64,000 nucleotides of DNA from Candidatus Uhrbacteria bacterium CG10_big_fil_rev_8_21_14_0_10_50_16 (lineage in GTDB: Bacteria > Patescibacteriota > Patescibacteriia > UBA9934 > UBA11717): assembly GCA_002774875.1 (NCBI GenBank), contig PCYM01000002.1, positions 14,781 to 78,780 on the forward strand, in the 5' to 3' direction. Position numbers and translations under genes: made by a program. How positions within the stretch are numbered: position 1 is the stretch's first letter; the number at the start of each line of letters is the position of its first letter. Below the pieces are notes generated by a model. It did not search any database, was not told where the DNA came from, and saw nothing but the letters and a program-made list of their open reading frames with translations. This document shows, piece after piece, positions 4,601 to 44,621 of this stretch.

Positions 4601-6259
4601 ATGAACGTAGGACGGCTTTTGATGGCCTGTCTGCTGGTGGTGGCCATGAGCGCCTCCGCTTTCGGACAGGATTCGCTCACTCTGGTGCTCGTGGGTCAGC
4701 CGCGAGAGCCGCAGATGGTGCCCAAGGTCGTGAAGGCCTTTACCCGCGCAACGGGTGGTGGCGTGACGCCCACGTCCGCTGAGACCGCTCTGCCCAACCG
4801 GCAGGTGATGGAAGCTTGTGTGGACACGAACGCAGACTCCGTCTGTGAGAACATGGGCGTCAACACGCTCTACCGTCAGCCGGGCAACCTTCTGCTGGTG
4901 AGCGGTGCGGACCCCGAGTTTCACCCGTGCACGGATCGTGGATCCTACACCGCCATGGAGGCAGAGGACCAGTTCGTCGCCAACAGTCGTGGTGCGAGCA
5001 TCATCGATCAGATGGATGCACTCGCGTACGGAAAGGCTGCAACGGCGCTAATGACGCTCGGAGAGGTTAGCCTCCCTTGCCTCAACGAACGGTTGGAGGA
5101 AGAAACGTTCTGGCGGTATAACTTCGTGGCTGGGTATCTGGCCTACGAGACTGCCAACAACCACTCCGCCGGCATCGATGCCGCGCGGCCGTTCTTTCTG
5201 AACGCCCTCCACACATCTCCGGGTCACACCTGGGACGCCGACTACCCGCCGGCGGCACAGACCGCCTATGCCGAGGCCAAGGTGGCCCTGGTGAAGGAGG
5301 AAATAGGGGAGGTGAACCACGACGCCATGCGAGTGGTGACCCTCGGGGCGTTCGACGCTCTGACGGTAGACACCCAATCCTACGCCGAGGGGATGCACCT
5401 GCACCCCGGCCTGCACCTGCTCCAGTGGAAGTTCCAGGGTATGGAGTACACGCGTGTGTTCAGCGTCCCTGAGGGCGGCGTTGACCAGGTCCTTCTGCTC
5501 GTGGATGGCGCGAGCTGGGCGCAGGCCTTGCTCACCTTCCCCGAACAGCGCTCCCAGGCGCAACGTCTGGTGGTGGCCACAACTCTCAGCCTCATGACCC
5601 GCAACGGTCAGCGGTCGATGGGTGTCGTGGATCTTGCGCAGGACCCTCCACTGGGGCTTCTGTACAAAGCGGATGGCGAAGGCGTGCCACTCCCCGTGGA
5701 TCTGCCGACCTACACCGCCGCTGTAGAGGAGGGCGATGATGATGACGGTCCGGTCCGCCGGCCTCACGTGGAACCGTTCCAGACGGTGGACACCACGCCG
5801 GGTCAACTGGCGCTGGTGGCAGGCGGTGGGTTCAAGGGCTTCGGCCCGGCCACCTACGCCAGCGTCCACCTGGCGCTCGATGCCCACATCCGCAACGGCT
5901 TCGGCGTGGCCATTCAGGGCAACCTGGGGCTCACGTCCGTCTCCCTCCCGGATGGCACCAATGTCCTCGGAGACCTGGTCTCCCTAGGGCTGGGTGTGTG
6001 GTACCGGTTCTGGTCGCCGGTGGGGGTTCGCCCTCTCCTGCTACTAGATCTACTGCTGGACATCAACAGCTACGGCGTCAGTGCCCCCATCCCGCTCCCC
6101 TCCCTCACGGGCGGCGGCGGCGTGGAGGTGCTCCTGCCCGACTCCCGCTTCCGCGTCCGATTCGTCGGCTACGTGGGTGGTGGGTGGGATGGCACCACGA
6201 GTCGACCGCGCTACGGAGCCACGTCGGCTCTGGTGATGGAGCTGCGCCCGGCTCCCTAG
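4601..6259 (+). CDS. High-GC secreted hypothetical protein (552 aa, signal peptide, Cys-rich N-half, Gly-rich beta-like C-half)
   Basis: ORF track; GAGGAGG SD 7 nt upstream of ATG; GC ~65% with GC3 near saturation against ~48% flanks; shadow ORFs on other frames. Confidence 0.6.
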   Translation: MNVGRLLMACLLVVAMSASAFGQDSLTLVLVGQPREPQMVPKVVKAFTRATGGGVTPTSAETALPNRQVMEACVDTNADSVCENMGVNTLYRQPGNLLLVSGADPEFHPCTDRGSYTAMEAEDQFVANSRGASIIDQMDALAYGKAATALMTLGEVSLPCLNERLEEETFWRYNFVAGYLAYETANNHSAGIDAARPFFLNALHTSPGHTWDADYPPAAQTAYAEAKVALVKEEIGEVNHDAMRVVTLGAFDALTVDTQSYAEGMHLHPGLHLLQWKFQGMEYTRVFSVPEGGVDQVLLLVDGASWAQALLTFPEQRSQAQRLVVATTLSLMTRNGQRSMGVVDLAQDPPLGLLYKADGEGVPLPVDLPTYTAAVEEGDDDDGPVRRPHVEPFQTVDTTPGQLALVAGGGFKGFGPATYASVHLALDAHIRNGFGVAIQGNLGLTSVSLPDGTNVLGDLVSLGLGVWYRFWSPVGVRPLLLLDLLLDINSYGVSAPIPLPSLTGGGGVEVLLPDSRFRVRFVGYVGGGWDGTTSRPRYGATSALVMELRPAP

Positions 6260-8072: not shown

Positions 8073-8255
8073 TGCCTACAATATAGCCTAAACTGTTACG
8101 AAAGTCACAGCATGGCATAAAAATCTACCAAAGCACTGACCCCGTTGTCAGCGAGCTTTGGTAGGTCGTATGTCGAAAGGCATGCGTTGGGAGTAATCCC
8201 ACGAGCTGGCAGCGGGTTTTGTGCTGTCCGCTCGAATAAATCCTACCAAAGCGCT

Positions 8256-8651
8256 ATGACAACCTACAAACAAAATGGCTCCCACGATTGGTTGGGAGAT
8301 GCAGCGGAAAATTATGTCCGCTATTGTTTTGCACGCGAAGGCTACGAAGTCTTCGGGGCAGGTAAATAGGCGACAGACTGCGCCGTGCATGACAAGGAAA
8401 ACGACAAGTGGTATCGGGTAGAGGTGAAAAGCACAGATCGGCCAAAGCGACCTATACGACCAAGAATTTCAAACCTCGCCGGACGCGTAGACCTACTAGC
8501 AGAAGTAGTATTTTCTGATGACTCCGAACATCACAGTACGACCATGACGCTGACTTTGACGAAAATTAGTACAGAGGGACGAAGGGGTGAACGGTGTCCG
8601 ATCTGGGAAAACGGGGATGTGAAAGGGTTCCTTGCTGGACCTAACGGCTAA
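8256..8651 (+). pseudogene. YraN/UPF0102-like PD-(D/E)xK endonuclease interrupted by an in-frame amber (TAG at 8367-8369)
   Basis: Track ORFs 8145..8369 and 8385..8651 are in the same frame. The joined product MTTYKQNGSHDWLGDAAENYVRYCFAREGYEVFGAGK*ATDCAVHDKENDKWYRVEVKST... (~130 aa) has the spacing of the YraN pattern G..AE.A..YL...GY.........EIDLI...D...VFVEVK. Confidence 0.4.
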
Positions 8652-9618
8652 GCATTTGACCAATTGATCTAAGGTTCGAGCTCTTAATTATTTCGCCTAG
8701 ATTCCTTGTCTTTATTTCTTCGATGACCTTCGAATTTTCCTCGCGAGTTTTTAAGACTCTGTTAAGGAGTCTTTGGTTAGCGGTAACTACAAAACGACCC
8801 GCATGAAAGGCCACTCGTTTATTTACTTCTCTAACGATACGATGGTCTACGATCGCGACTGAAATGCCATCAAATTGATAACTCTTTTCCATTAGTAGAG
8901 TAGATCGTGGACCTATTGGTATGACGGTCTCTGTTATCGGACCGCAAGTAGTATAGCCAGTAGTTGTAACTAAAGGATTGTCACTACAAATAAACTGTCT
9001 CCCACTCGGCGCCACAAGTAATGTCCATCGTCGTTTGCTGTATTCACCCTTCATGAGTGGACCAATCATAGCCATTAATTTGAGATTATGATCATTACCT
9101 TCAACTTTCCATGTGATACCACTAGATGGATCAAGTGTATTCAATAACTCCTCTCGACTCGGTAATCCCTTGCCTGGATTCTCTGCTTTCCAGTCGATTT
9201 CAAACTCTCTAAATTTTTTCTTGTCACTCAATATGCTCAAAGCGCGATCGCGATGATCTTTTAGGGCGAGTTTATTCATCTGTTCATGACTGACAGGCGT
9301 GCGTACAGCCTGGAAACCAAAGTAATAGCAAAGGCTTTCACGTTCATCAGCCGATATATCCGAAACATCTAATGTTGCTAGCTTTGCGAGCGGTGCGGCT
9401 GCGGGACCCTCAATATCGTCTGCTAGCATTTCATCTATCGTAAAAGGAAGGTCCACAGGTGCATTCATCTCATAGTAATCTCTCTGGGCACAGATATTTC
9501 TTGGTGAGGTGATGAGTGATTTCTTCTCAGGGATCAAATAAGCAAATACCTGATCGTTTTCGTCAGCCCAGTGGCGAAGATGCATCTGCGCTACGACATG
9601 TTGATTTCTGGTCGGCAT
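8641..9618 (-). CDS. DUF4238-family protein (the family used by the single-gene anti-phage system Rst_DUF4238), 325 aa
   Basis: N-terminal QHVVAQMHLRHW resembles the DUF4238 H-Y-V-P-Q-F-Y-L-(K/R)-x-F motif; length is in the family range; located next to a tRNA; 3' end overlaps the YraN-like gene by 11 nt. Confidence 0.45.
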   Translation of the reverse strand: MPTRNQHVVAQMHLRHWADENDQVFAYLIPEKKSLITSPRNICAQRDYYEMNAPVDLPFTIDEMLADDIEGPAAAPLAKLATLDVSDISADERESLCYYFGFQAVRTPVSHEQMNKLALKDHRDRALSILSDKKKFREFEIDWKAENPGKGLPSREELLNTLDPSSGITWKVEGNDHNLKLMAMIGPLMKGEYSKRRWTLLVAPSGRQFICSDNPLVTTTGYTTCGPITETVIPIGPRSTLLMEKSYQFDGISVAIVDHRIVREVNKRVAFHAGRFVVTANQRLLNRVLKTREENSKVIEEIKTRNLGEIIKSSNLRSIGQMLSR

Positions 9619-9864: not shown

Positions 9865-9897
9865 AAAAAAGCCCCCAGATATACTGGTGGCTTTTTT
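9865..9897. terminator. Bidirectional terminator (gccccca-gatatac-tggtggc with A6/T6 flanks) immediately 3' of tRNA-Glu
   Basis: Stem-loop with one G.U, flanked by AAAAAA and TTTTTT. Confidence 0.6.
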
Positions 9898-9971
9898 GGT
9901 GACCCCACCGGGAATCGAACCCGGATTTCCAGGATGAAAACCTGACGTCCTAACCGCTAGACGATGGGGCC
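9897..9971 (-). tRNA. tRNA-Glu (anticodon UUC)
   Basis: Reverse complement GGCCCCATCGTCTAGCGGTTAGGACGTCAGGTTTTCATCCTGGAAATCCGGGTTCGATTCCCGGTGGGGTCACCA folds as a cloverleaf with anticodon loop TTTTCAT; CCA encoded. Confidence 0.85.
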
Positions 9972-10162
9972 ATGGTATTGCTCCTCTTACAGGCAAATGC
10001 AATGCCAGAGCGCGGAGAATATACGACATTCCACAGGGTCTGTCAATCCTATTCCGCGTATCCATTGACGAATCCACCCTGATTGCTATATTCGGCGTGG
10101 AGGAGCGTCATTTTAACGCACCAATAGTCATCTATACCGGTACGCCGGTAAAGGGAGGTAAC

Positions 10163-11686
10163 GTGACCAACCTGGGCGATACGTTTGGACCGTTTCAGCT
10201 CCAACGCCTCCTGGGCGAAGGAGGCATGGCCAAGGTCTATCTCGCGATTCAGCGCGGGGCACAAGGGTTTGAGAAGTCTGTTGCGCTCAAAGTGATCGAC
10301 CAGCGCGTCACGGAAGACGACCGTTTTGTGAAGGCCCTCATCAACGAGGCGCGGCTAGGTGGTCAGCTCAAGCACCCCAACGTGGTGGAGATCTACGGGT
10401 TCGATCGCGTAGAAGGTCAGTACTACCTGGCCATGGAGCTGGTAGATGGATGGACGCTGGATCAGCTCCTCAAGCCAAACGGCAAGACGAGCACCCCGCT
10501 CCCCGTAACCATTGCATTGGAACTTCTGGTAGAGGTCTGTAAGGGTCTCGCCTATGTGCACGGTCTTGCGGACAAGCACGACACCCCCATGCACCTGGTG
10601 CACCGCGACATCAAGCCAGCCAACATCATCGTGAGCCGGGCAGGAGAGGTCAAGCTGCTCGACTTTGGTATCGCCAAGTCGGACACCAGTCTCTACAAGA
10701 CCACCAACGCCGATGTCACCAAGGGAACCCCTGTCTACATGTCACCGGAGCAGGTGCGAGGTGAGTCTTTGGACGGACGCAGTGACCTATTTGCACTCGG
10801 AATCATCCTGCACGAACTCCTATCGGGTGAGGTGTTGCTGGCAGTAGGAACTCTTCTCGAGATCCTGAATCGGGTTCTCCAGTGCGAGCAACCCATTGTG
10901 CAGAATCGATTCAACGTGCACTCTCCCGCCATCCAGACGATCCTGAGGAAGTGTGTTCGTGCCAACGTCGGCGATCGATTCGCAAGCGCACAGGACATGC
11001 AAACAGCGCTCAAGCAAGCAAGAGCTGAGTTGGACGGGCCCACGCTGGTGGAATGGATCAAGGGAATGGCACCGCAAGACAGCCATCAACCATCCCCTTC
11101 CCCAACTCCCACTCCGGGACCCACACGTCAACAACAGACGCCCAAGCTTGCAAGTCCGGCTGTACAACTGGCGCCCGTGGCAGCCCCCGAGCCTACCGTG
11201 CATGTCACGGTCCCGGCTCCGGTGCAACCGTCACACAGGGTATGGGTCGGTGGCTTGGCAATCGGCGTTCCTGTGCTGGTAGCGATCGCTCTCATCTGGC
11301 CACGAGAGCCAGTTGAGCTTACTGCATCACCTCAAGCGTCGCACGTCGCCTCGTCGACTTTGCCAGGTTTAGGGGTTCTTCCCAACTTGGCGGTAGAACC
11401 AGGCCCGGCGTCCACGTCCCCGCGAGCCACTCGGCAACAACCGAGCCCCGCGCCCGTGGAAACAGGTACAGGAACACTGGTTCTCAACAGCCGACCATGG
11501 TCGCGTGTAGATGTCGATGGACAGTCCGTTGGCGTGACTCCTGTTCACGGATTCATGGTCTCCGCGGGTAAACACACGCTCGTGTTTCACTGCGGCGCCT
11601 GTTTGGATCAACAGGTCCAGACGCAGACCGTCACGGTAACCGTGGCCAATGGCGAGACCGTATCGCTCACTTCCGTTCGATTCTAA
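10163..11686 (+). CDS. Hanks-type Ser/Thr protein kinase with Pro-rich linker, TM segment and C-terminal PEGA-like domain (high-GC)
   Basis: LGEGGMAKVY..ALKV, HRDIKPANI, DFGIAK, GTPVYMSPEQ kinase motifs; C-terminal LVLNSRPWSRVDVDG...VTP..G (PEGA-like); start set at GTG 10163 six nt after the perfect SD AGGGAGGT, where the GC jump also begins. Confidence 0.8.
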   Translation: MTNLGDTFGPFQLQRLLGEGGMAKVYLAIQRGAQGFEKSVALKVIDQRVTEDDRFVKALINEARLGGQLKHPNVVEIYGFDRVEGQYYLAMELVDGWTLDQLLKPNGKTSTPLPVTIALELLVEVCKGLAYVHGLADKHDTPMHLVHRDIKPANIIVSRAGEVKLLDFGIAKSDTSLYKTTNADVTKGTPVYMSPEQVRGESLDGRSDLFALGIILHELLSGEVLLAVGTLLEILNRVLQCEQPIVQNRFNVHSPAIQTILRKCVRANVGDRFASAQDMQTALKQARAELDGPTLVEWIKGMAPQDSHQPSPSPTPTPGPTRQQQTPKLASPAVQLAPVAAPEPTVHVTVPAPVQPSHRVWVGGLAIGVPVLVAIALIWPREPVELTASPQASHVASSTLPGLGVLPNLAVEPGPASTSPRATRQQPSPAPVETGTGTLVLNSRPWSRVDVDGQSVGVTPVHGFMVSAGKHTLVFHCGACLDQQVQTQTVTVTVANGETVSLTSVRF

Positions 11687-11687
11687 T

Positions 11688-11750
11688 ACGCATCCGCGTC
11701 CATGTAACCTTCCGTTACTGGCCTCGCAGATGCGTCAATTTTTTAAAAAA
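11688..11750. terminator. Bidirectional terminator between convergent kinase and GGDEF genes
   Basis: acgcatc...gatgcgt stem followed by AATTTTTTAAAAAAAG. Confidence 0.45.
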
Positions 11751-11794
11751 AGTGAGATCGACGCACCCCGTTCTTGGGTACGCCGATCCGTTGT

Positions 11795-12424
11795 TCACTG
11801 TTGGCTCTTCTTGATTCGCTTGTTCGCGCTCATCGCCGCCGCCACCGGCTGGTAGAGCGAGGCTATGGGATTTTTGAGATCCTCTCGGGAGATGATCGTG
11901 CCAATCCCCCTGTGGATACCCAAACCCCAAAACGGCGTATTGAGCGCGACGAATTCCTTCTCACCCAGCACAAACTCCAGACGCTGCGCAACCCTCCGTG
12001 TCACTTCAAAATCCGCACCTGGTAATAAGACCACGAACTCATCTCCACCCACGCGCGCCGCCGCATCCAATGGGCGCAGAACGGACAAAGAGTCCGTGTC
12101 GCCCGTGTAGACGGCGCCCAGAACCTTCCCCACGTGCCGCAACACATGGTCTCCCGTGGGCTGACCGTACGTGTCATTGATCTGCTTGAACCCTTGGAGG
12201 TCTAAAAAGATCACGCTCAAAGGTTTTCGCTCTCGCATGCACGTCGCCGCCATACGCAACAAGGTCTCTTCCATTCCACGGAGGTTCATTAACCCCGTGA
12301 GGTAGTCGGTTCGCGACATCCGTCGCTCATCCAAGAGCTGAGTCTGCAGTTCCCGAACGCGCGCATGAAGCGCCGCAACCGCTTCCGGCGAACAGTCGTC
12401 CGGCGGTGGTAAAGATGATTTCAT
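11795..12424 (-). CDS. Diguanylate cyclase (GGDEF domain)
   Basis: RVGGDEF active-site motif and GLMNLRG region; AAGGAGG SD upstream of Met at 12424. Confidence 0.75.
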   Translation of the reverse strand: MKSSLPPPDDCSPEAVAALHARVRELQTQLLDERRMSRTDYLTGLMNLRGMEETLLRMAATCMRERKPLSVIFLDLQGFKQINDTYGQPTGDHVLRHVGKVLGAVYTGDTDSLSVLRPLDAAARVGGDEFVVLLPGADFEVTRRVAQRLEFVLGEKEFVALNTPFWGLGIHRGIGTIISREDLKNPIASLYQPVAAAMSANKRIKKSQQ

Positions 12425-12541
12425 GGCTCCTCCTTGGGCACTACATGCCAGCAAGCGTTCCGGAGAATCCGGTGCTCATCCACCATACAAACAAAAAAAC
12501 AGGTATATGTCAACACCTGCCATCTACTCATGATGAAGGTT

Positions 12542-12853
12542 TTAAAAATCCATCATCGTGTCAAGACTCGGCGCCTCCCCCGAATATAACCGCACGAGTT
12601 CTGGCACGTCCTCTACACGCACGTCTCCCAACCACACATTGTCTGGCATCACGACCACGGTGACGCCCGTGCTACATTGCCCCAAGCACCCGGTGCGACT
12701 TACACGAATATCAAACGCCGCCTCTGCAAATCCTAATTTAAGTGCGTCATACACCTCCTCTGCCCCTCGTTGCATGCAACACGCACGGCCGTCAGGTCTG
12801 TCATTGAGGCAGACAAGAATTAATTTTCTGTACACGCGTTCTGGGGTTTTCAT
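12542..12853 (-). CDS. (2Fe-2S) ferredoxin-like protein, thioredoxin-fold ferredoxin/NuoE-like family
   Basis: Four Cys in C...C...C..C-like spacing (LVCLNDRPDGRACCMQRG... GCLGQCSTG), 103 aa. Confidence 0.55.
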   Translation of the reverse strand: MKTPERVYRKLILVCLNDRPDGRACCMQRGAEEVYDALKLGFAEAAFDIRVSRTGCLGQCSTGVTVVVMPDNVWLGDVRVEDVPELVRLYSGEAPSLDTMMDF

Positions 12854-12955
12854 ACTTTGTTGTGAGTTCTAAGTTCTGTTGATTCTATCAGCTAAAAAAC
12901 GTGACCGCGGGACTCAAGGTGAGAATCCCGCGGCCTTCCACGTTGTTGTTGGCCC

Positions 12956-13165
12956 TCAGCGCATGCAGTCCGCCCGCGCTTGCACGTCCCTCGTCACTCC
13001 AACAGCCGCACGCCAAGCATGCGGATCCGCCCCGAGAAGCCCGTCGATCTCATCGCCGTTCGAGACTCTGGGACCTCGTCCCATCGTCACACCAGCGCGA
13101 TTCGGCGACGCCTCGCTATTCTGACCGTCTCCCTGCTGTCCCTCGCCCTGTCCCTGCGACTGCAT
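12956..13165 (-). CDS. Small high-GC hypothetical protein (69 aa, Gln/Gly-rich N-terminus) in a promoter-to-terminator cassette
   Basis: Minus-strand TTGACA-N17-TAGTAT promoter at ~13215-13245, GGAG SD, ORF, then terminator hairpin ggccgcggga...tcccgcggtc + T6 at 12893-12930. Confidence 0.35.
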   Translation of the reverse strand: MQSQGQGEGQQGDGQNSEASPNRAGVTMGRGPRVSNGDEIDGLLGADPHAWRAAVGVTRDVQARADCMR

Positions 13166-13279
13166 GACTCATCTCCGTGCTCTCATTTCGAGCTCGCAGA
13201 TACTATTCTCATTTTCTCCTTCTGTCAATCATCCACAGAGAAGTTAGAATCCCCGCCATAATTCCTATATACTGTACCT

Positions 13280-13654
13280 ATGGATTTACACATTGGCACA
13301 AAAGAGCAGGATTGGGCAGACGTTGTAGAAGGTCAGCTTTCTGTTGATATTTTTGAGACAGAGGATCAAATCATTATCCAATCCGCCATTGCCGGTGTTT
13401 CTGCAAGTGATTTGGACCTCTTTGTAAATGCGGACATGGTCACCATCCGAGGAACCCGCCAACGCGACGCACGCACAAACACGGCCACTATGCATTACGA
13501 AGAGTGTTTTTGGGGAGCCTTTTCCCGCACCGTTGTCCTCCCTTCTCACATCAAGCCAGGAGACGCACAGGCAGAACTCAAAGACGGAATCCTAACGATC
13601 ACCTTACCCAAGGAGCACAAAGGAGGAGCATCTATACCTGTAACCGAACGTTAA
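13280..13654 (+). CDS. Hsp20/alpha-crystallin family small heat-shock protein
   Basis: Alpha-crystallin domain signature ...AELKDGILTITLPK... 124 aa. Confidence 0.8.
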   Translation: MDLHIGTKEQDWADVVEGQLSVDIFETEDQIIIQSAIAGVSASDLDLFVNADMVTIRGTRQRDARTNTATMHYEECFWGAFSRTVVLPSHIKPGDAQAELKDGILTITLPKEHKGGASIPVTER

Positions 13655-24184: not shown

Positions 24185-25666
<1,482 letters not shown>

Positions 25667-26904: not shown

Positions 26905-26981
26905 TGGTGGGCGTGCCAAGAATCGAACTTGGGACCTCAGCATTATCAGTGCTGCGCTCTAACCATCTGAGCTACACGCCC
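26905..26981 (-). tRNA. tRNA-Ile (anticodon GAU)
   Basis: Reverse complement GGGCGTGTAGCTCAGATGGTTAGAGCGCAGCACTGATAATGCTGAGGTCCCAAGTTCGATTCTTGGCACGCCCACCA; anticodon loop CTGATAA. Confidence 0.85.
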
Positions 26982-28989: not shown

Positions 28990-29300
28990 ATAGGTAGTCC
29001 TTTTACAACAACAAAATCAATGACTCGAGAAGTAGTACTCTTATTACTCCCTGCAAAGCGAATCCGGGATGGTGGAAGCCGGATCATAGAATAAGAAGAA
29101 ATTGGACTCGATGAGATGACGCGTGCTTTTGTGCGTGTCCGGCATCCCCCGTAACCTTGGGATAATGTGTATCTACGGAGCACATGAAAGAGCCTTCTTT
29201 TTTTAGAAGGAATTGAGGTGGTACCGCGGTGGTGGAGAACCCCCGTCCTCAGACAACGTCTTGTTGTCTTTGGGCGGGGGTTTTTTGCCCCACGCAAGGA
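28990..29300 (+). promoter_or_regulatory. T-box riboswitch leader with intrinsic terminator
   Basis: Canonical T-box sequence AATTGAGGTGGTACCGCGGTG at ~29205-29225 (17/19 to AAUUAGGGUGGUACCGCGG); ~300-nt leader; terminator ccccc gtcc...gggcggggg + T6 at ~29242-29290 just before the SD of the downstream operon. Confidence 0.65.
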
Positions 29301-39857: not shown

Positions 39858-40619
39858 ATGTTAAACAAATGGATCAACACGTTTATTCAACTTGGGTTGA
39901 GTGAAGTGGAATCAAAAATCTACTTTGCGGGGTTGGAGTTGGGGCCCACGAGCGCGCAAGAATTAGCACGCAAGGCGAGTGTCTCACGCACGGCCACGTA
40001 CGATGCGATTAATGCGCTCAAAGGGAAGGGATTGTTATCGACGTTTCAAAAGGGAGCAAAAACGGTGTTCACAATCGAGCAGCCTGAGGACGCGCTGCGT
40101 TACTTCCGCAAACAATCGCGACAAATGCGAGATAAGATTGAACTCATGGAAGAGGCCGTGCCGGAAATGAAAAGCCTCTCACCTGGGGAGAAGCCGTTTA
40201 TTCGATTTTACGAGGGACCCGAGGCATTGCGCAACTTATTTGCGGACGTACAGGCCGTCAATCCTCCTTCCATCTACGAGTTTGTAAATATTCAGGATGT
40301 GTATCATTCCGTGCACGACGGGACACCAGAGGTTAAAAAAATATTTGCCGAAGCTCACAATGTATCAGATCCATCACGGCAAGATATACGTCTCCTACAT
40401 ACGGGAAATGTACGAGAAAATTATCAACATCGTAAAGGCGTAGCGTTTCGACAACTGAACAATTCATTTGGTGAGTTTCACGGCGACATCTGGATTTATG
40501 GCGACCGAGTTGTGTTCACCTCATTTAAGGGATCCATTATGGCAATTATCATTCAAAGTGAAATGTTTTCTCAAACTGCCCGTGTCATGTTTGAAGCCGC
40601 CTGGTCTATAAGCAAATAA
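39858..40619 (+). CDS. TrmB-family transcriptional regulator (wHTH + C-terminal domain)
   Basis: N-terminal winged-helix EVESKIYFAGLELGPTSAQELARKASVSRTATYDAINALKGKGLL; paralogue of 45951..46757. Confidence 0.6.
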   Translation: MLNKWINTFIQLGLSEVESKIYFAGLELGPTSAQELARKASVSRTATYDAINALKGKGLLSTFQKGAKTVFTIEQPEDALRYFRKQSRQMRDKIELMEEAVPEMKSLSPGEKPFIRFYEGPEALRNLFADVQAVNPPSIYEFVNIQDVYHSVHDGTPEVKKIFAEAHNVSDPSRQDIRLLHTGNVRENYQHRKGVAFRQLNNSFGEFHGDIWIYGDRVVFTSFKGSIMAIIIQSEMFSQTARVMFEAAWSISK

Positions 40620-41079
40620 CAAACCGCGACCTGCCAGGTGGGCGGATCGCGGTCACAAGATCTGGCGGATCGCGGGGCGCGGACGTCGGAGAACCGACGC
40701 CGCACCCCGCTCTCCGCGCTTCTCAGCCGTTCATGGTGCCCTCCTGTGGCCATGGCTGGTGAAGCTATTCTTCCAACAAAGTTAAGGTCTCTGTGAAGAC
40801 CTGTCCTTGTAGATGCGACGCCGAGGGGGCGTCGTGGTTGGAGTCGCGTGGTACGCGACTTCCGGCCGGGTCTTTCACCCGGCGGAGGGCTGTGGGGGGG
40901 GCTAGCCGCCGAACATGGCGTACCCCTTTCCAGGTTTGATGAACGCATGAGCGCGTTCAATCAAAACCATCTATACCACAATTTTGCGGCTTTGTCAAGC
41001 GTAAGAGGCGTGTTTGTTCGCCTGCGACGTACTAAATAATCTTAAATTTACTGTGAGTTGTCCGCCAAAAGCGTACAAA

Positions 41080-41110
41080 ATAAACCGCTAACTTAAGCGG
41101 TTTATTTTAA
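41080..41110. terminator. Bidirectional terminator aaaccgct-aactt-aagcggttt
   Basis: Perfect 8-bp stem with A/T-rich flanks. Confidence 0.6.
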
Positions 41111-41126
41111 TTCTGGCAACAATGGA

Positions 41127-41155
41127 TTGACACAATGCCTCTTCCATGTTAATCT
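41127..41155 (+). promoter_or_regulatory. Sigma70-like promoter TTGACA-N17-TAATCT at the entrance of the high-GC island
   Basis: Read directly; no convincing ORF for the next ~1.1 kb. Confidence 0.5.
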
Positions 41156-42304
41156 GCTTTGTTCACTGATAGAGCACAACGCCTCAGTGATCCATGCATC
41201 TTACAAACAAACAGTGAAACAGGGCTTGTAACAACTACGTTGCAAGAACAAAGGACGATCGATATGGATCGTTCTCCTGGAATGTGCGTATGGCTGTAGG
41301 AAATTTCATGTAACGGCACTACAACGTACGGCAATCTGGATTAAAAAGGCTGGATCCATGGTCTACAACACCGTTTGAGACACATGTGTCCCCGCCACGC
41401 GGCCCCGCCGCGGATCTCTCGCTAGCACCACATAGACGCCATGCTATAGCTGGTAGCGGGAGATCCGCGGCAGAGGACGCAACCTGTCCAATCCGCACAA
41501 GAACTCTGTTGCCGGTGGGACGGCAAAACAGGGTGGGTGCTTGGCACACCCAGACCATCTGGTCAAAGATAACTCCTGGTAACAGGAGGAAACTCATGGC
41601 GGTAACACCATGGGGATGCGAAAGCATTCATAGCGCCACGCCTATCATGACGTATCCACGTTGGGTCGGGAGACCCCTCCAGGATCGGTACTGGAGTTGA
41701 TAGGTGCTTGCGGGTTGGAACCCTGCAAGAGTGAGTGCGGACAGTGGATTCTCCAATCCACGTTTGCACAGCAATGGTTTGGGCTACGCCCTCAACTGAT
41801 CGCAACCATTTTGTTACCGGCATCGCGCCCGAGTGGCGCGACCAATCAACCACCGGGTTGGTTTGCTGGGGCAATGGCGATCAGGTTGTATGCAAGGAAG
41901 GGCCTAACCGGTGAATCGTTCGTGTCAGTCATCTGCACGGCGATGATCCGGATAAAAAGGCGGATGGTTTGGGCGCCCCCCATTCCGTCCGCTCAACCAG
42001 GAGTCCCAGGCCGGCCAGCCAGGATTCTGAAGTTGAGAACTTGCATACTCCTAAGGCTGACACCCATCAGCCGACCGAATTCCATCGGGTTTTTCCGCTC
42101 AGACGGGCGGAAGACACACGGAAGGGTCAAAGACTGGTTGGCGGTCGCAACCGTCTCGCACAGCCTGAGAAGGCAACCAGCCGCGGGAGTAAGCACTTGC
42201 GTTACTTATTCCCACCTTATCTTCGCGCCCGAGCTTGCAATTCTGCTTGCTCGGACGCTCCACAAACTGCTTGAGTAACTCGAGCTGTTCGTGGAGGAGG
42301 AGCG

Positions 42305-42460
42305 ATGGCCATCACCCCCAGCTACGGAGTGGTGCGTCACGGCGCGGTCTGGTTTACCACCAGCCCGCAGCAGCTCAAGCGTGAGGCCCGTGAAAAGGCC
42401 GATCGCGAGCTGCAGGCGAAGCGACCTTGTGTCGTAATCCGCCGCCGCGCGCACCGGTAG
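42305..42460 (+). CDS. Small high-GC hypothetical protein (51 aa)
   Basis: GGAGGAGG SD immediately upstream of ATG; GC3-rich; below the track length cut-off. Confidence 0.35.
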   Translation: MAITPSYGVVRHGAVWFTTSPQQLKREAREKADRELQAKRPCVVIRRRAHR

Positions 42461-42681
42461 TCCTCATACGCTCGTGGGTCACACGAGCGTAAAAGGGTGC
42501 CGCAAACACCCTGCCCTAGCCAGGCAAAACCCCCGGGCTGCAGGTCCCATCTTGATTGAAAATTCCTGCACAACGTGGACCTGGGCACTGCTCGGGTCTT
42601 CCACAAAGGCGCGATCCTGTATGGCATTTTTGTGGAGGATACAACTCACTTACTGTTCTCGGAGGAGAACGAGGAGGTTCC

Positions 42682-42972
42682 ATGCGTCGATACACATTGT
42701 TCAGTAGCTGGCGTCGATCTGAGCTCGAGATCCCCTCCTCCGGGAGAAGGATCAAGAAGCTGGATAGGACGTTCGAGGTCGGCACCCCGCGGTACCTGAA
42801 GTGGCTCCGGCGCATGTTCCCCGATCAGGTTTACCTGGTCGTGGCGCAGGGAACCATGCCTCAAATGCTCGACCGCGTTCGCGCGCGGTTTGGACAGGAG
42901 GAGGTTCCCGGCGTGGTGTCTGCCACCGTTCAGCTTCAGCGGGACATCCGAGAAAACCCAAGTCTCTACTGA
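42682..42972 (+). CDS. Small high-GC hypothetical protein (96 aa, basic)
   Basis: GAGGAGG SD + ATG 42682 inside track ORF 42556..42972; preceded by a repeat-leader copy. Confidence 0.45.
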   Translation: MRRYTLFSSWRRSELEIPSSGRRIKKLDRTFEVGTPRYLKWLRRMFPDQVYLVVAQGTMPQMLDRVRARFGQEEVPGVVSATVQLQRDIRENPSLY

Positions 42973-42990
42973 AAGGAGGTGCTTCCGTGG

Positions 42991-43055
42991 CCTGAGGAGA
43001 ATCGCTTCTTGGGCCCTGCATAGAGTCTTTGCAAAACGAAGGTTCTATGGAGGAA
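42991..43055 (+). repeat. Repeated ~65-70-nt leader module (copy R1) with conserved 11-bp stem-loop ending in the SD
   Basis: GCCTGAGGAGAATCGCTTCTTGGGCCCTGCATAGAGTCTTTGCAAAACGAAGGTTCTATGGAGG is ~80% identical to the copy at 43711-43790; compensatory base changes keep the CAUAGAGUCYU/ARGRUUNUAUG stem. Confidence 0.55.
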
Positions 43056-43293
43056 AGGAAGTGTCAAATACCCCAGGTGGTATTGACGGCACTTCTGGCG
43101 CCTCACGACCATGTGCTCTCACCAGCACAAATTGGTCACAAAAGAGACGAACAGCAATGCGTCGCGGCTGCCAGTAGGAGGTATACGTACGAGGCCTGAG
43201 AAGATTCACTTCTCGGGCACTCTACAGAATTCTAGGCAGAAAAGGATTCTGAGAGTTAATCAATGTACGCAACAAGAGATTGGGAGGTGTGCG

Positions 43294-43569
43294 ATGAACA
43301 AGCTCAATGTGGTTGAGATAGGTCTTCGTAATGGCAAGGGTCTGAGCTTCACCTGCGGCAAGCTCTATGTCCGCATTACGGTAGACGGCCTCACGCTGCG
43401 CGTTGAGACCAACCTGCCGGTGCGGGCCAAGGAGCTGGCCGAGTCCGAGACGACCCCCGTTCGCCGGTCCGTGTTTGACCGCGCCGATGAGCTGCGCCGA
43501 GGAGGACGGCACAGCGACGTGGACGTGGCGGCAACAGGAGGGCGGCGGGTGATCCGACGCAGAACGTAA
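43294..43569 (+). CDS. Small high-GC hypothetical protein (92 aa)
   Basis: GGGAGG SD + ATG 43294 inside track ORF 43111..43569; preceded by a partial leader-module copy at 43194-43238. Confidence 0.45.
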   Translation: MNKLNVVEIGLRNGKGLSFTCGKLYVRITVDGLTLRVETNLPVRAKELAESETTPVRRSVFDRADELRRGGRHSDVDVAATGGRRVIRRRT

Positions 43570-43710
43570 ACCCCAGCCCGCGATCGGAACACGCGGCAAA
43601 GGCTGTTCCACCCCTCGCCCTCGCGAGCAGACCCCTTGCGTTTGAGCCACGCAATCGGGTCCCGTCCAGAACGGGGTAAGCCATCGCTCCGGGCGGTCAC
43701 GCGCCCCCTT

Positions 43711-43790
43711 GCCTGAGGTCAACTGATTCTCGGGCACTGCATAGAGTCCTTGCTGCACGAGGATTGTATGGAGTCTACAACTTTTGGAGG
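43711..43790 (+). repeat. Repeated leader module (copy R2) abutting the ATG of the 189-aa gene
   Basis: GCCTGAGGTCAACTGATTCTCGGGCACTGCATAGAGTCCTTGCTGCACGAGGATTGTATGGAGTCTACAACTTTTGGAGGTCACC then ATG. Confidence 0.55.
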
Positions 43791-43795
43791 TCACC

Positions 43796-44362
43796 ATGCG
43801 CCTGTTCGGACTTTCTGACTGTTACGATGCGATGGATCTGTACGTCTGCATCAACGGCAAGCACGTGCTCCTGTCCCGGTCGGAGGGGTGGGTGTCTGCC
43901 CGTGTGAAGCCGTGTGACAAGAGCTGTGTTCCCACGGAGATTGATCTGGAGGTGTGGCTGCAGAAGGCACCGCGGAAGGTCCGCAAGGATCCTCGGCTGC
44001 TCGCGTTCGTGGAGCAAGGAGTGCCCGCGTACACGGTGCACCGTTCCTTCGCCAAGCGCTCCGGCGGCAGCGAGACGGTCTGGATCGGCAACCTGGCGAT
44101 CACGTGGAGCTTTTGCGACGCGTCGCGGTTGAGCCAGCGGGACCGGTGGCGAGACCGCTTTGAGATCTGCCCCATCGGGGAGAATGATCTGCTGTGGTGG
44201 ATCCGCGACGTCCTCCCGTCCTCAAGACGGCTCGAAGACGTTGCCGAGGAGATCCGTCGCAATGACGATCTGCTCCTGAGCGAGCTCCGGCAGCGCGGCA
44301 CTCCGGACGCAAACACCCTGGACGCGGATGCCTTCCGGCAGTTTCTCTTGAACCTGCTGTAA
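43796..44362 (+). CDS. High-GC hypothetical protein (189 aa)
   Basis: Start at MRLFGLSD with GGAGG SD supplied by the leader module; terminator gccaaaatccc...gggatttggc+T7 at ~44400-44460. Confidence 0.5.
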   Translation: MRLFGLSDCYDAMDLYVCINGKHVLLSRSEGWVSARVKPCDKSCVPTEIDLEVWLQKAPRKVRKDPRLLAFVEQGVPAYTVHRSFAKRSGGSETVWIGNLAITWSFCDASRLSQRDRWRDRFEICPIGENDLLWWIRDVLPSSRRLEDVAEEIRRNDDLLLSELRQRGTPDANTLDADAFRQFLLNLL

Positions 44363-44592
44363 GAAGACGATCGTGCTCCCCAGCTCCCCGGTTCTCGGGT
44401 TGAGCCAAAATCCCTACGTCAATCCCATCTGTTCTTCTGGTGGGATTTGGCTTTTTTTGCTACATTTCTATTTAATTTTCATCGCCCAACAAACCTAGGG
44501 CGGCGGCATTTATTTATAAACAATACGACCTGAGACTTGATTATCTTATTTTTCTTTTAGGCTAAAATTAGCCATTTTTCCATGGTCACCTC

Positions 44593-44621
44593 TTGACAAA
44601 AGGTGTTTTTTATGGTATAAG
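44593..44621 (+). promoter_or_regulatory. Sigma70-like promoter TTGACA-N17-TATAAG in AT-rich spacer driving the next high-GC ORF
   Basis: Read directly. Confidence 0.5.

What the first reader, a model, noticed from the sequence alone, without database searches (positions are those of the whole stretch)
10150..13260. High-GC signalling block: Ser/Thr kinase-PEGA, GGDEF cyclase, [2Fe-2S] ferredoxin-like protein and a 69-aa cassette
The GC jump starts exactly at a perfect SD (AGGGAGGT) 6 nt before a GTG start that gives a canonical Hanks kinase N-terminus. The ATG 66 nt upstream lies in AT-rich host-like DNA.

The kinase ends in a PEGA-like extracellular domain, typical of Myxococcota, Actinobacteria and Chloroflexi rather than reduced genomes.

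Convergent GGDEF and thioredoxin-like ferredoxin genes share the elevated GC. Together they form an imported sensory module.
Basis: partly seen in the sequence, partly recalled or inferred. Interest (0 to 1): 0.5.

Follow-up and report, generated by a model that had tools for sequence, protein, structure and literature searches.

The report
Conserved kinase–cyclase signalling genes in Uhrbacteria
A slightly GC-rich stretch in a tiny-genome (CPR, Candidatus Uhrbacteria) bacterium encodes a membrane Ser/Thr kinase, a c-di-GMP cyclase, a small iron-sulfur protein and an orphan mini-gene; the genes are real, but they are a long-established, vertically inherited part of this lineage's chromosome, not a freshly imported block.

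Summary
The genes are there. They are a 507-aa Hanks kinase (GTG 10163, strong SD) with a TM helix and a C-terminal PEGA-type domain, a convergent 209-aa GGDEF cyclase, a 103-aa thioredoxin-like [2Fe-2S] ferredoxin and a 69-aa ORF.

GC is raised for the kinase, the GGDEF gene and the 69-aa ORF (GC3 0.65-0.69 against about 0.50). It is barely raised for the ferredoxin.

The host is Candidatus Uhrbacteria. The order tRNA-Glu/kinase/GGDEF/ferredoxin/HSP20/VanW recurs in three other Uhrbacteria-like contigs, with the same GC offset, although synonymous sites are saturated. So this is not a recent island.

Only the kinase looks foreign. Its whole architecture matches a family from about 71% GC, kinase-rich genomes, labelled Myxococcota or Deltaproteobacteria where named. 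It is 52-57% identical to them in the kinase domain, against 45% to another Patescibacteria member. An ancient transfer is likely.

The GGDEF gene has no identifiable donor. The ferredoxin belongs to the host's HSP20/VanW neighbourhood. The 69-aa ORF is an orphan with its own promoter and terminator.

Verdict: ordinary known families and a partly correct interpretation. The persistent gene-specific GC excess is unexplained.

The parts
9897..9971 (-). tRNA-Glu(UUC), the conserved left-hand neighbour of the kinase
   Evidence: ARAGORN and Rfam. The same tRNA lies upstream of the kinase in L002. A promoter-like site for it is at 10046-10018.
10065..10092 (+). sigma70-like promoter match upstream of the kinase (TTGACG-16-TATATT with TG)
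   Evidence: Consensus scan only. The implied transcript start, near 10100, argues against the 10097 start codon.
10152..10159 (+). Shine-Dalgarno sequence AGGGAGGT, 3 nt before GTG 10163
   Evidence: Sequence. The 16S 3' end reads ...CACCUCCUUUC.
10163..11686 (+). Hanks-type Ser/Thr kinase, 507 aa. The kinase domain is about aa 8-300, followed by a Pro-rich linker.
   Evidence: Pkinase 148.6 bits. G-loop GEGGMA, VALK (K43), E62, HRDIKPAN, DFG and SPE are all present, and these positions are invariant in a 15-sequence alignment. The exact protein is also on ENA contig k141_73167.
11240..11299 (+). Predicted single transmembrane helix of the kinase (aa 360-379, VWVGGLAIGVPVLVAIALIW)
   Evidence: Top Kyte-Doolittle 19-aa window, mean 2.5. 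The position is conserved in homologues. No dedicated TM predictor was run.
11450..11683 (+). C-terminal extracytoplasmic PEGA-type beta-sandwich domain with a conserved CxxC pair (C477, C480)
   Evidence: PEGA 22.9 bits against a 20.8 cut-off when scanned alone, and 43/45 homologues hit PEGA. The AlphaFold model has pLDDT 90.4 and 7 strands. Foldseek matches are weak: Serratia RtkS-PpkA complex chain 9k1u_B at TM 0.59-0.60, and the carboxypeptidase D regulatory domain.
11755..11789 (-). Intrinsic terminator-like hairpin plus T7 directly after the GGDEF stop, in the convergent gap
   Evidence: 14-bp stem, 8 GC pairs, tail CACTTTTTTT.
11795..12424 (-). Stand-alone diguanylate cyclase, 209 aa: a short N-terminal helix plus a GGDEF domain. 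The true start is ATG 12424, preceded by AGGAGG.
   Evidence: PF00990 89.5 bits and TIGR00254 95.6 bits. The GGDEF motif is at aa 126-130 and RxxD (RPLD) at 117-120, five residues upstream. The D..FK.IND..G...GD motif is present. SD. The 209-aa form is NCBI PIR47713.1.
12498..12521 (-). Weak terminator-like hairpin between the ferredoxin and GGDEF genes
   Evidence: 9-bp stem, 3 GC pairs, T-rich tail. Consensus match only.
12542..12853 (-). Thioredoxin-like [2Fe-2S] ferredoxin, 103 aa, with Cys15, Cys26, Cys56 and Cys60 as predicted ligands
   Evidence: The profile hits 1F37 at E=4e-20 with the ligand Cys aligned. The Cys are invariant in 13 homologues. Pfam is sub-threshold at 18.2 against 24.8. 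NCBIfam fdxn_Azotob scores 47 bits, far below the equivalog cut-off.
12903..12935 (-). Strong intrinsic terminator-like hairpin after the 69-aa ORF and upstream of the ferredoxin gene
   Evidence: 13-bp stem, 9 GC pairs, tail ACGTTTTTTA.
12956..13165 (-). Orphan 69-aa ORF (GC 0.657), a possible small gene of unknown function
   Evidence: It has GGAG 7 nt before the ATG, its own promoter and its own terminator. There is no Pfam or NCBIfam hit. HMMER against 1.84 billion representatives found no homologue except itself. It is not similar to the small ORFs at the same position in L086 and L088, and it is absent from L002.
13200..13228 (-). sigma70-like promoter match (TTGACA-17-TAGTAT) for the 69-aa ORF unit
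   Evidence: Consensus scan.

Best explanation
Window 10150-13260 is a stable chromosomal signalling neighbourhood of a Candidatus Uhrbacteria (CPR/Patescibacteria) clade. It is not a recent island.

It holds four independent transcription units.
1. A single-pass membrane Hanks Ser/Thr kinase. Its extracytoplasmic C-terminus is a PEGA-type beta-sandwich carrying a conserved CxxC.
2. A convergent sensor-less diguanylate cyclase. It has a short N-terminal helix, an intact GGDEF active site and an RxxD inhibitory site.
3. A thioredoxin-like [2Fe-2S] ferredoxin, upstream on the cyclase's strand.
4. An orphan 69-aa ORF.

Shown:
- The domain identities and the intact catalytic and ligand motifs.
- Conserved synteny in four genomes.
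- A kinase architecture shared with a family found in about 71% GC, kinase-rich genomes labelled Myxococcota or Deltaproteobacteria.

Inferred:
- The kinase lineage entered an ancestor of this Uhrbacteria clade by ancient horizontal transfer and has been inherited vertically since, evolving fast.
- The ferredoxin is an old host gene of the HSP20/VanW neighbourhood.
- The kinase senses a cell-surface or extracellular cue through the PEGA/CxxC domain and phosphorylates cytoplasmic targets.
- The cyclase dimerises through its N-terminal helix to make c-di-GMP under product feedback.
- Any kinase-to-cyclase or ferredoxin-to-cyclase coupling rests only on conserved adjacency.
For: Host identity: exact proteins are named Candidatus Uhrbacteria (PIR477xx).

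Domains and motifs.

Synteny: the order tRNA-Glu/kinase/GGDEF/Fd/HSP20/small/VanW is conserved in L002, and in L086 and L088 it extends to ClpP, DHH, SMC, the 552-aa hypothetical, NaCaEx, TsaD and TsaE.

Identity of the window to L002/L086/L088:
- kinase 58/39/31%, with the kinase domain 65% to L002 and 51.5% to L086
- GGDEF 54/36/34%
- Fd 87/57/65%
- HSP20 91/80/79%
- VanW 74/61/60%

Kinase relatives outside the clade:
- They are 600-aa proteins, 52-57% identical in the kinase domain, with the same TM and PEGA-CxxC C-terminus.
- Named ones are Myxococcota, Deltaproteobacteria or a Proteobacteria MAG.
- Three sampled loci have GC 0.71 and kinase GC3 0.92, with multiple adjacent kinases.
- In the NJ tree, window+L002 (200/200 bootstraps) plus L086 (105/200) sit inside this family, with Kofleriaceae kinases as the next outgroup. 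The Patescibacteria member P0098 sits elsewhere.

Transcription signals.
Against: - Most family members carry no taxon label, so a Myxococcota-like donor rests on a few names and three high-GC loci.
- The tree is NJ only and its deep nodes are weak (52% for the three-Uhrbacteria clade). The L088 positional orthologue has a very divergent kinase domain and falls outside the family in the tree.
- An ancient single import does not explain why GC3 stays 0.15-0.2 above the neighbours after synonymous saturation.
- No FHA, PP2C, PilZ or EAL/HD-GYP gene was found among the window ORFs scanned, so neither the kinase's nor the cyclase's pathway partners are visible here.
- No activity or expression data exist.
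Confidence: 0.6

Rival explanations
1. Recent genomic island. Kinase, GGDEF, ferredoxin and the 69-aa ORF would have been imported together from a high-GC donor into a reduced genome, and the raised GC would be the un-ameliorated donor signal.
For: A GC step of about 10 points occurs at the kinase start. The block lies next to a tRNA gene. The kinase family is typical of high-GC, kinase-rich genomes.
Against: - The block is present in the same place in three other, well-diverged relatives.
- Between the window and L086/L088, 4-fold sites are fully saturated (same third base 0.26-0.28 against 0.25-0.27 expected), yet the GC excess is shared.
- The ferredoxin is host-like in composition and context.
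- The GGDEF gene has no donor-like relative.
- The block lies on the 5' side of the tRNA, while the variable DNA is on its 3' side.
- There are no integrase, att repeats, or viral or plasmid matches.
Confidence: 0.05
2. No horizontal transfer. The kinase and the cyclase would be ancestral CPR genes. Their GC richness would be a gene-specific compositional equilibrium shared with other fast-evolving, lineage-specific genes of this clade. The similarity to Myxococcota-type kinases would reflect slow evolution of that family, or transfer in the opposite direction.
For: - The GC excess persists after synonymous saturation.
- It is shared by other poorly conserved genes: the 552-aa hypothetical has GC3 0.78-0.91 in all four genomes, and small ORFs reach 0.81-0.87.
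- A second Patescibacteria lineage (L093) carries a family member with GC3 0.73 against a 0.42-0.57 background.
- The same architecture is found in five CPR contigs.
Against: - The window's kinase domain is closer to the high-GC 600-aa proteins (52-57%) than to the Patescibacteria member P0098 (45%) or to its own positional orthologue in L088 (31% over the full length).
- In the tree the CPR sequences do not form one clade (window+L002+L086+P0098 in 16/200 bootstraps, with L088 in 0/200).
- The family is overwhelmingly non-CPR among the 120 best of 7744 hits.
Confidence: 0.2
3. Repeated replacement. The kinase, and perhaps the cyclase, at this conserved locus would have been replaced more than once by copies from high-GC organisms. 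That would explain both the persistent GC excess and the very low identity between positional orthologues.
For: - Positional orthologues of the kinase and GGDEF are far more divergent (31-39% and 34-36%) than the flanking genes (57-92%).
- The L088 kinase does not group with the other three.
- The GC excess is present in every lineage despite saturation.
- The window has other patches with near-donor composition, for example the gene from 62186 with GC3 0.92.
Against: - Window, L002 and L086 group together, if weakly.
- All four share the shortened Uhrbacteria-type architecture and the PEGA-CxxC C-terminus.
- No close donor (above 60% identity) was found for any of them, and none at all for GGDEF.
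- Fast evolution of signalling proteins is a simpler explanation of the low identity.
Confidence: 0.15

Closest known systems
Bacterial Hanks-type (eukaryotic-like) membrane Ser/Thr kinases with an extracytoplasmic PEGA domain, the 600-aa family found here in Myxococcota- or Deltaproteobacteria-labelled MAGs
   Same: All Hanks catalytic motifs are present. The layout is a single TM helix, a Pro-rich linker and a C-terminal 75-aa PEGA-type domain with the motif NS.PW..V.(V/I)DG...G.TP...G.H......C..C. The kinase domain is 52-57% identical and the C-terminal domain 40-63%.
   Different: About 100 aa shorter. The cytoplasmic juxtamembrane segment (FFDT motif and Lys-rich stretch) of the 600-aa proteins is missing. 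The gene sits in a reduced CPR genome as a lone kinase rather than in an array of kinases. No member of this subfamily has, to my knowledge, been studied experimentally.
Serratia marcescens PpkA (T6SS threonine kinase) with its periplasmic regulator RtkS (PDB 9k1u; PMC6082577)
   Same: It is a Hanks kinase with one TM helix and a small all-beta extracytoplasmic domain. There the domain is the docking site for a regulator protein. It is the best Foldseek match of the modelled C-terminal domain (TM 0.59-0.60, E 5e-3). The interaction is described in PMC6082577.
   Different: The structural match is weak, at 11-14% identity. I infer, but did not check, that chain B is the PpkA periplasmic domain. 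There are no T6SS, Fha or PppA genes in the window.
Stand-alone GGDEF diguanylate cyclases with an N-terminal stalk helix (WspR/PleD catalytic domain; SiaD-type architecture)
   Same: The GGDEF motif, the Mg/guanine-binding D..FK.IND...GD motif and the RxxD I-site five residues upstream of GGDEF are present, as in WspR (3BRE alignment). The length and layout (about 35-aa helix plus GGDEF) resemble SiaD, which scores 83.8 bits against the NCBIfam SiaD model but far below its 290-bit cut-off.
   Different: There is no receiver, PAS, GAF or other sensor domain. The C-terminal helix (ADxALYxAK region) is degenerate. There are no SiaABC-like partner genes. It is not an equivalog of any named cyclase.
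Thioredoxin-like [2Fe-2S] ferredoxins (Aquifex aeolicus Fd4, PDB 1F37; Azotobacter and Clostridium 2Fe-2S Fd)
   Same: The size is the same (103 against 110 aa). The Cys spacing C-x10-C-x29-C-x3-C aligns to the four ligands of Fd4. The profile E-value is 4e-20.
   Different: It is below the Pfam and NCBIfam cut-offs as a single sequence. It carries an extra adjacent Cys (CC at 25-26). Cluster binding has not been shown.

Membership tests
Hanks-type Ser/Thr protein kinase (Pfam PF00069) | Profile score above the curated cut-off | tested here: met
   148.6 bits against 31.7.
Hanks-type Ser/Thr protein kinase (Pfam PF00069) | Catalytic motifs: Gly-rich loop, VAIK Lys, alphaC Glu, HRD..N, DFG, APE | tested here: met
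   GEGGMA, VALK, E62, HRDIKPAN, DFG and SPE are present, and these positions are invariant across 15 homologues.
Hanks-type Ser/Thr protein kinase (Pfam PF00069) | Autophosphorylation and substrate phosphorylation | not testable with these tools
   Needs biochemistry.
PEGA domain (Pfam PF08308) | Profile score above the curated cut-off (20.8 bits) | tested here: met
   17.0 bits in the full-length scan (fails), but 22.9 bits with E 8e-5 for the isolated 78-aa domain. 43/45 homologous domains match, best E 1e-8. Only the N-terminal half of the model (positions 2-40 of 71) aligns, so this is a marginal member.
PEGA domain (Pfam PF08308) | Small beta-sandwich (transthyretin or carboxypeptidase-regulatory-like) fold | tested here: inconclusive
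   The model is a confident 7-strand sandwich (pLDDT 90.4). No PDB match reaches E<=1e-3. The best are 9k1u_B (TM 0.6) and the carboxypeptidase D regulatory domain (prob 0.94, TM 0.52).
GGDEF diguanylate cyclase (PF00990 / TIGR00254) | Profile score above the cut-offs | tested here: met
   89.5 against 23.8 bits and 95.6 against 37.4 bits.
GGDEF diguanylate cyclase (PF00990 / TIGR00254) | Intact GG(D/E)EF active-site motif and metal/guanine-binding residues | tested here: met
   GGDEF is at aa 126-130 and invariant in the four orthologues. D75, F79, N83, G91 and D92 are conserved.
GGDEF diguanylate cyclase (PF00990 / TIGR00254) | RxxD allosteric inhibition site five residues upstream of GGDEF (not obligatory for the family) | tested here: met
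   RPLD at 117-120. It is kept in L002 (RPSD) and L088 (RPTD) but altered in L086 (RPQE plus an insertion).
GGDEF diguanylate cyclase (PF00990 / TIGR00254) | c-di-GMP synthesis from GTP | not testable with these tools
   Needs an enzyme assay.
Thioredoxin-like [2Fe-2S] ferredoxin (PF01257 clan; Aquifex Fd4 type) | Profile score above the curated cut-off | tested here: not met
   As a single sequence it scores 18.2 against 24.8 bits in Pfam. NCBIfam fdxn_Azotob scores 47 against 195 and fdxn_Clost 38 against 150. It is therefore not an equivalog of the named ferredoxins.
Thioredoxin-like [2Fe-2S] ferredoxin (PF01257 clan; Aquifex Fd4 type) | Homology to a solved member, with the four cluster-ligand Cys conserved | tested here: met
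   The profile of 13 homologues hits 1F37 at E 4e-20 over 88 residues. The ligand Cys align, including the two positions changed to Ser in the 1M2B and 1M2D variant chains. These Cys are invariant in the family.
Thioredoxin-like [2Fe-2S] ferredoxin (PF01257 clan; Aquifex Fd4 type) | Binds a [2Fe-2S] cluster | not testable with these tools
   Needs spectroscopy.
Horizontally acquired genomic island | Composition differs from the host genome | tested here: met
   GC3 is 0.65-0.69 for the kinase, GGDEF and orf69, against about 0.50. This is not met for the ferredoxin (0.56).
Horizontally acquired genomic island | Absent from related genomes (patchy presence) | tested here: not met
   It is present in the same place in L002, L086 and L088. 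A more distant relative, L094, shows the Fd without an adjacent GGDEF or kinase, but that contig ends 80 nt further on.
Horizontally acquired genomic island | Mobility genes, flanking direct repeats, or integration at the 3' end of a tRNA | tested here: not met
   There are no integrase or transposase genes. Only a 14-nt 13/14 repeat was found, one copy of which lies inside the conserved HSP20 gene. The block is on the 5' side of tRNA-Glu.
Horizontally acquired genomic island | Gene phylogeny conflicts with the organism phylogeny | tested here: inconclusive
   Kinase: the nearest relatives outside the clade are Myxococcota-type, and the CPR members are not monophyletic, but the tree is NJ, the labels are sparse and the support is weak. 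GGDEF: no informative relatives. Fd: the relatives are CPR-like contigs.

The most novel reading that the evidence does not exclude
The several GC-rich patches of this Uhrbacteria genome may not be relics of one old import. They include the kinase, the cyclase, the 552-aa secreted hypothetical, the small orphan ORFs, the 40.6-45.9 kb region and the gene from 62186 with GC3 0.92. They could instead record continuing gene flow, including in-place replacement of the kinase and cyclase, from a high-GC Myxococcota-like organism with which this CPR bacterium lives. In that case the composition and phylogeny of these patches could be used to name the unknown host of an uncultured CPR lineage.
Probability: 0.12. 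Interest if true: 0.6.

Novelty: new member of a known kind. Interest (0 to 1): 0.25.

Why it matters
The practical lesson is that a GC step plus 'foreign-looking' domains does not identify a recent island in these CPR genomes. Here the GC excess is gene-specific, and it is shared by orthologues whose synonymous sites are saturated.

The biology adds a small point. A clade of Uhrbacteria keeps a Myxococcota-type PEGA/CxxC receptor kinase and a minimal c-di-GMP cyclase next to stress and cell-wall genes (HSP20, VanW). Diguanylate cyclase genes have been reported to be enriched in sediment-associated ultra-small groundwater genomes, a set that includes Patescibacteria (PMC9938205). Horizontal transfer into Patescibacteria is also documented and is mostly old (PMC12455944). 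So the finding fits known patterns rather than changing them.

The persistent, gene-specific GC excess in fast-evolving genes is the only aspect that might repay a genome-wide study.

Tried and rejected
It returned only distant kinases (at most 46% identity, Kofleriaceae best). It recovered neither the host species nor the 50-57% relatives.
2. The listing of cluster members on ten NCBI-sourced top kinase hits gave only one extra label, 'Proteobacteria bacterium'.
3. Two metagenome-contig scans with VanW, as a single protein and as a 4-sequence alignment, were meant to find relatives with or without the block and so date the gain. Both returned nothing because the chosen peptide patterns were uninformative.
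4. The viral-contig scan with the kinase found no match. The plasmid search with the orf69 region found no match.
5. I tested whether the GC-rich 12895-13195 unit is a riboswitch or leader for the ferredoxin gene. There is no Rfam match even at E<=10. The fold z-score is only -2.06 and is mostly due to the terminator hairpin. The sequence is not conserved in L002. Rejected.
6. I considered the direct repeats 10129-10142 and 13629-13642 (13/14) as att sites. One copy lies inside the conserved HSP20 gene, so this is a chance match. Rejected.
7. BLASTP with composition-based statistics failed to report the kinase-domain match between the window kinase and P0053/L086. This is an artefact. Without the adjustment the proteins align at 38.8% over 570 columns, and the kinase domain alone at 51.5%.
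8. The correlation between GC3 and conservation over 13 syntenic genes is negative but not significant (Spearman -0.46 and -0.51, p about 0.1).
9. The 504-aa ORF at 62090-63604 (-), with GC1 0.93, is an antisense shadow of a + strand gene and not a gene itself.

Full report
**What the window is.** Exact look-ups of ten window proteins return NCBI entries PIR47707-PIR47751, locus tags COV06_018xx, from 'Candidatus Uhrbacteria bacterium CG10_big_fil_rev...'. This is a CPR/Patescibacteria MAG. The same proteins occur on a 413-kb JGI contig and a 39.8-kb ENA contig. The window has GC 0.508. It carries a 16S rRNA gene, five tRNAs, a T-box leader, a LOOT RNA, rpoB/rpoC, ClpP, SMC, TsaD/TsaE and similar genes. 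Housekeeping genes have GC3 of about 0.45-0.55.

**Checking the observation: the kinase.**
- The ORF at 10097-11686 (+) contains an internal GTG at 10163, preceded by AGGGAGGT at 10152-10159. The 16S 3' end is canonical...CACCUCCUUUC.
- The 10163 start gives a 507-aa protein whose N-terminus aligns residue for residue with those of 14 homologues. The ENA gene call uses the same start, while NCBI annotates the 529-aa form.
- A sigma70-like match at 10065-10092 would start transcription near 10100, roughly at the upstream start codon.
The upstream start is GTG, not ATG. The upstream DNA has GC 0.48-0.50, the genome mean, and is not AT-rich. The SD-to-start spacing is 3-4 nt.

**Checking the observation: the domains.**
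- Pkinase scores 148.6 bits and GGDEF 89.5 bits.
- PEGA scores 17.0 bits (<20.8) in the full-length scan but 22.9 bits for the isolated C-terminal 78 aa. PEGA is hit by 43 of 45 homologous C-termini.
- The Fd-like ORF scores 18.2 bits (<24.8) in Pfam. A profile of 13 homologues, however, hits Aquifex aeolicus [2Fe-2S] ferredoxin 4 (1F37) at E=4e-20 with the four ligand cysteines aligned, and those cysteines are invariant in the family.

**Checking the observation: composition.**
- GC rises from 0.487 (9972-10162) to 0.595 (first 200 nt of the kinase). The finding as a whole is 0.570.
- GC3 is 0.650 for the kinase, 0.686 for GGDEF and 0.671 for the 69-aa ORF, but only 0.558 for the ferredoxin.
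- This is one of at least four GC-rich patches in the window. The others are 4601-6259 (GC3 0.78), 40.6-45.9 kb, and 62186 to the end (GC3 0.92).

**Anatomy of the kinase.**
- All Hanks motifs are present (GEGGMA, VALK, E62, HRDIKPAN, DFG, SPE).
- A Pro-rich linker follows, then one strongly hydrophobic helix at aa 360-379.
- A second Pro-rich stretch leads to a C-terminal domain with the conserved pattern NS.PW..V.VDG...G.TP...G.H....C..C.
- An AlphaFold model of that domain, built from a 44-sequence alignment, is a confident seven-strand beta-sandwich (pLDDT 90.4).
- Foldseek finds only weak PDB matches. The best is a 76-residue chain of the Serratia RtkS-PpkA complex (TM about 0.6), followed by carboxypeptidase-regulatory-type domains.
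- In Serratia the small periplasmic domain of that Hanks kinase is the docking site for a regulator protein (PMC6082577). This is a functional analogy, not evidence of homology.

**Anatomy of the cyclase.**
- Its true start is ATG 12424, behind AGGAGG, giving 209 aa.
- It consists of a helix of about 35 aa and a GGDEF domain. It has an intact GGDEF motif (aa 126-130), the D..FK.IND...GD substrate and metal motif, and RPLD exactly five residues upstream of GGDEF, as in the WspR I-site.
- It has no sensor domain.
- A 14-bp hairpin plus T7 follows its stop in the convergent gap.

**Anatomy of the ferredoxin and the 69-aa ORF.**
- The ferredoxin gene lies upstream on the cyclase's strand, separated from it by a weak terminator-like hairpin.
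- The 69-aa ORF has its own sigma70-like promoter (13228-13200), GGAG 7 nt before its ATG, and a strong 13-bp terminator (12935-12903).
- It has no homologue other than itself among 1.84 billion representative proteins and no family hit.
- It has no similarity to the small ORFs at the equivalent position in relatives. The region is not conserved in L002.
- It is therefore an orphan: either a lineage-specific mini-gene or nothing. A structured-RNA reading is not supported.

**Is it an imported block? Synteny.**
- The kinase's closest full-length relative (P0002, 58% identical) lies on a groundwater contig. That contig has tRNA-Glu, kinase, GGDEF, a 102-aa ferredoxin, HSP20, a small gene and VanW in the same order and orientation.
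- Two further contigs were found through the ferredoxin: L086 from a Logan assembly and L088 from a TARA sample. They extend the shared order to ClpP, DHH and SMC on one side. On the other side it extends to the 552-aa hypothetical, the Na/Ca exchanger, TsaD and TsaE.

**Is it an imported block? Divergence and composition.**
- Identity of the window to L002/L086/L088:
  - HSP20 91/80/79%
  - VanW 74/61/60%
  - ferredoxin 87/57/65%
  - kinase 58/39/31%
  - GGDEF 54/36/34%
  - ClpP 92/87% (L086/L088 only)
- The block is thus an old, vertically inherited part of the chromosome, in which the two signalling proteins evolve fast.
- The GC3 excess of the kinase (0.65-0.75) and GGDEF (0.69-0.78) over their neighbours is present in all four genomes. 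The ferredoxin's GC3 is host-like (0.43-0.57).
- Four-fold sites at conserved residues are near saturation between the window and L002 (same base 0.37-0.41 against 0.25-0.31 expected). They are fully saturated against L086 and L088 for the kinase and VanW (0.26-0.28 against 0.25-0.27).
- A fading donor signal from a single old import should have decayed, so GC alone cannot be read as evidence of import here.
- No mobility genes, att-like repeats, or viral or plasmid matches were found.
- The variable DNA lies on the other, 3' side of tRNA-Glu: DUF4238 in the window, NYN and a nucleotidyltransferase in L002.

**Origin of each gene: the kinase.**
- Of 7744 hits, the best outside the small Uhrbacteria clade are proteins of about 600 aa with the same kinase/TM/PEGA-CxxC architecture. 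They are 52-57% identical in the kinase domain and 40-63% in the C-terminal domain.
- The few that carry names are Myxococcota, Deltaproteobacteria or a 'Proteobacteria' MAG.
- Three sampled loci have GC 0.71, kinase GC3 0.92 and several kinases in a row.
- Another Patescibacteria member (P0098) is only 45% identical in the kinase domain and sits in a different genomic context. Its gene too has raised GC3 (0.73 against 0.42-0.57).
- The tree is a neighbour-joining tree on 291 kinase-domain columns. Window+L002 (200/200 bootstraps) join L086 (105/200) inside this family, and Kofleriaceae kinases are the next outgroup.
- In the same tree the CPR members are not monophyletic, and the L088 kinase domain is so divergent that it falls outside the family.
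- I read this as probable ancient transfer of a Myxococcota-type receptor kinase into the clade's ancestor. The caveats are NJ only, sparse labels and weak deep nodes.

**Origin of each gene: the cyclase and the ferredoxin.**
- For the cyclase, the next hit after the L002 orthologue scores under 100 bits, and the hits are generic PAS-, protoglobin- or REC-GGDEF proteins from many phyla. No donor can be named.
- For the ferredoxin, the relatives come from CPR-like contigs. In a more distant one it lies near HSP20/VanW without kinase or cyclase. In another it sits beside glutaredoxin, AhpC and SOD. It is a host redox gene.
- The donor-like kinase loci have no adjacent GGDEF or ferredoxin. The four genes were therefore not imported as a unit.

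**How it most likely works.**
- Shown: intact catalytic and ligand motifs, a receptor-kinase topology, and separate transcription signals.
- Inferred: the kinase senses an extracytoplasmic cue through the PEGA/CxxC sandwich, by protein or envelope binding or possibly by redox or metal chemistry at the Cys pair. It then phosphorylates cytoplasmic targets.
- Inferred: the cyclase dimerises through its N-terminal helix and makes c-di-GMP under I-site feedback.
- Coupling between the kinase, the ferredoxin and the cyclase is suggested only by adjacency. That adjacency survived large sequence divergence, but so did the whole 25-kb neighbourhood.
- No FHA, PP2C, PilZ, EAL or HD-GYP gene was seen among the window ORFs scanned.

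**Comparison with the known, and verdict.**
- All parts are members of well-known families.
- Diguanylate cyclase genes have been reported as enriched in sediment-associated ultra-small groundwater genomes, a set that includes Patescibacteria (PMC9938205).
- Mostly old horizontal transfers into Patescibacteria have also been reported (PMC12455944).
- The finding is a new member of known kinds, and the 'imported sensory module' interpretation is only partly right.
- The one unresolved oddity is the persistent, gene-specific GC excess in fast-evolving genes of this clade. Three explanations remain open: a gene-specific equilibrium, repeated replacement, or continuing influx from a high-GC partner.

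Noticed in passing
window 62186-64000 (+): A long ORF (MSKTMPIRL..., over 600 aa) runs off the window end directly beside rpoB. It has GC 0.68 and GC3 0.92, which is donor-like composition in a 51% GC genome. It has no Pfam hit. The 504-aa ORF at 62090-63604 (-) is its antisense shadow.
   Followed up: partly
window 40620-45950: A 5.3-kb GC-rich stretch (0.57-0.59) has only short overlapping ORFs and no Pfam family above cut-off. It is flanked by two ORFs (39858-40619 and 45951-46757) whose N-terminal sequences look like TrmB-type HTH regulators by eye. The second had no Pfam hit and the first was not scanned. ORFs 43784-44362 (GC3 0.81) and 44762-45460 (GC3 0.86) look protein-like. It could be an inserted element between duplicated regulator genes.
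   Followed up: partly
window 4601-6259 (+); L002 1-790; L086 13774-15675; L088 15806-17467: A 552-aa hypothetical has a signal-peptide-like N-terminus and no family hit. It has GC3 0.78 here and 0.81-0.91 in its orthologues in three relatives, which are 30-77% identical. It shows the same conserved GC excess in a fast-evolving gene as the kinase and the cyclase.
   Followed up: partly
window 8085-8202 (+) and 8641-9618 (-): A LOOT RNA (Rfam RF03000, 78 bits) lies next to a low-GC (0.43) DUF4238 gene, on the 3' side of tRNA-Glu. This side of the tRNA differs between the window and L002, which has NYN and nucleotidyltransferase genes there. It looks like a variable or integration spot.
   Followed up: no
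L002 12719-13172: The spacer between the ferredoxin and HSP20 genes of the relative holds two tandem copies of a roughly 110-nt unit. Each copy begins CTTCGTCCCCGAGAACATGTG and ends with the complementary GACGAAG. It is absent from the window.
   Followed up: no
L086 10406-10708 and L088 10409-10765: Two relatives carry an extra GC-rich small gene (GC3 about 0.87) between the ferredoxin and the cyclase. The L086 copy weakly matches yteA/DksA-type zinc-finger regulators (E 1.6e-6, below cut-off). The window and L002 lack it.
   Followed up: partly
L093 5483-7063: A second Patescibacteria genome (GCA_036011945.1) carries a member of the same PEGA-CxxC kinase family in an unrelated context. There too it is the only GC-rich gene of its neighbourhood (GC3 0.73 against 0.42-0.57).
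   Followed up: partly
L091 312-1376 and L092 342-1361: In the high-GC, kinase-rich loci that hold the closest non-CPR kinase relatives, an FHA-GGDEF fusion protein lies about 7 kb upstream of a run of three Ser/Thr kinases. This hints that phospho-Thr signalling and c-di-GMP synthesis are linked in those organisms.
   Followed up: no
window 24185-25665, 26905-26981, 29011-29253: The 16S rRNA gene stands alone: no 23S was found in the window, and tRNA-Ile is on the opposite strand. A T-box leader precedes an ORF with a weak GCS2 (glutamate-cysteine ligase family 2) match.
   Followed up: no
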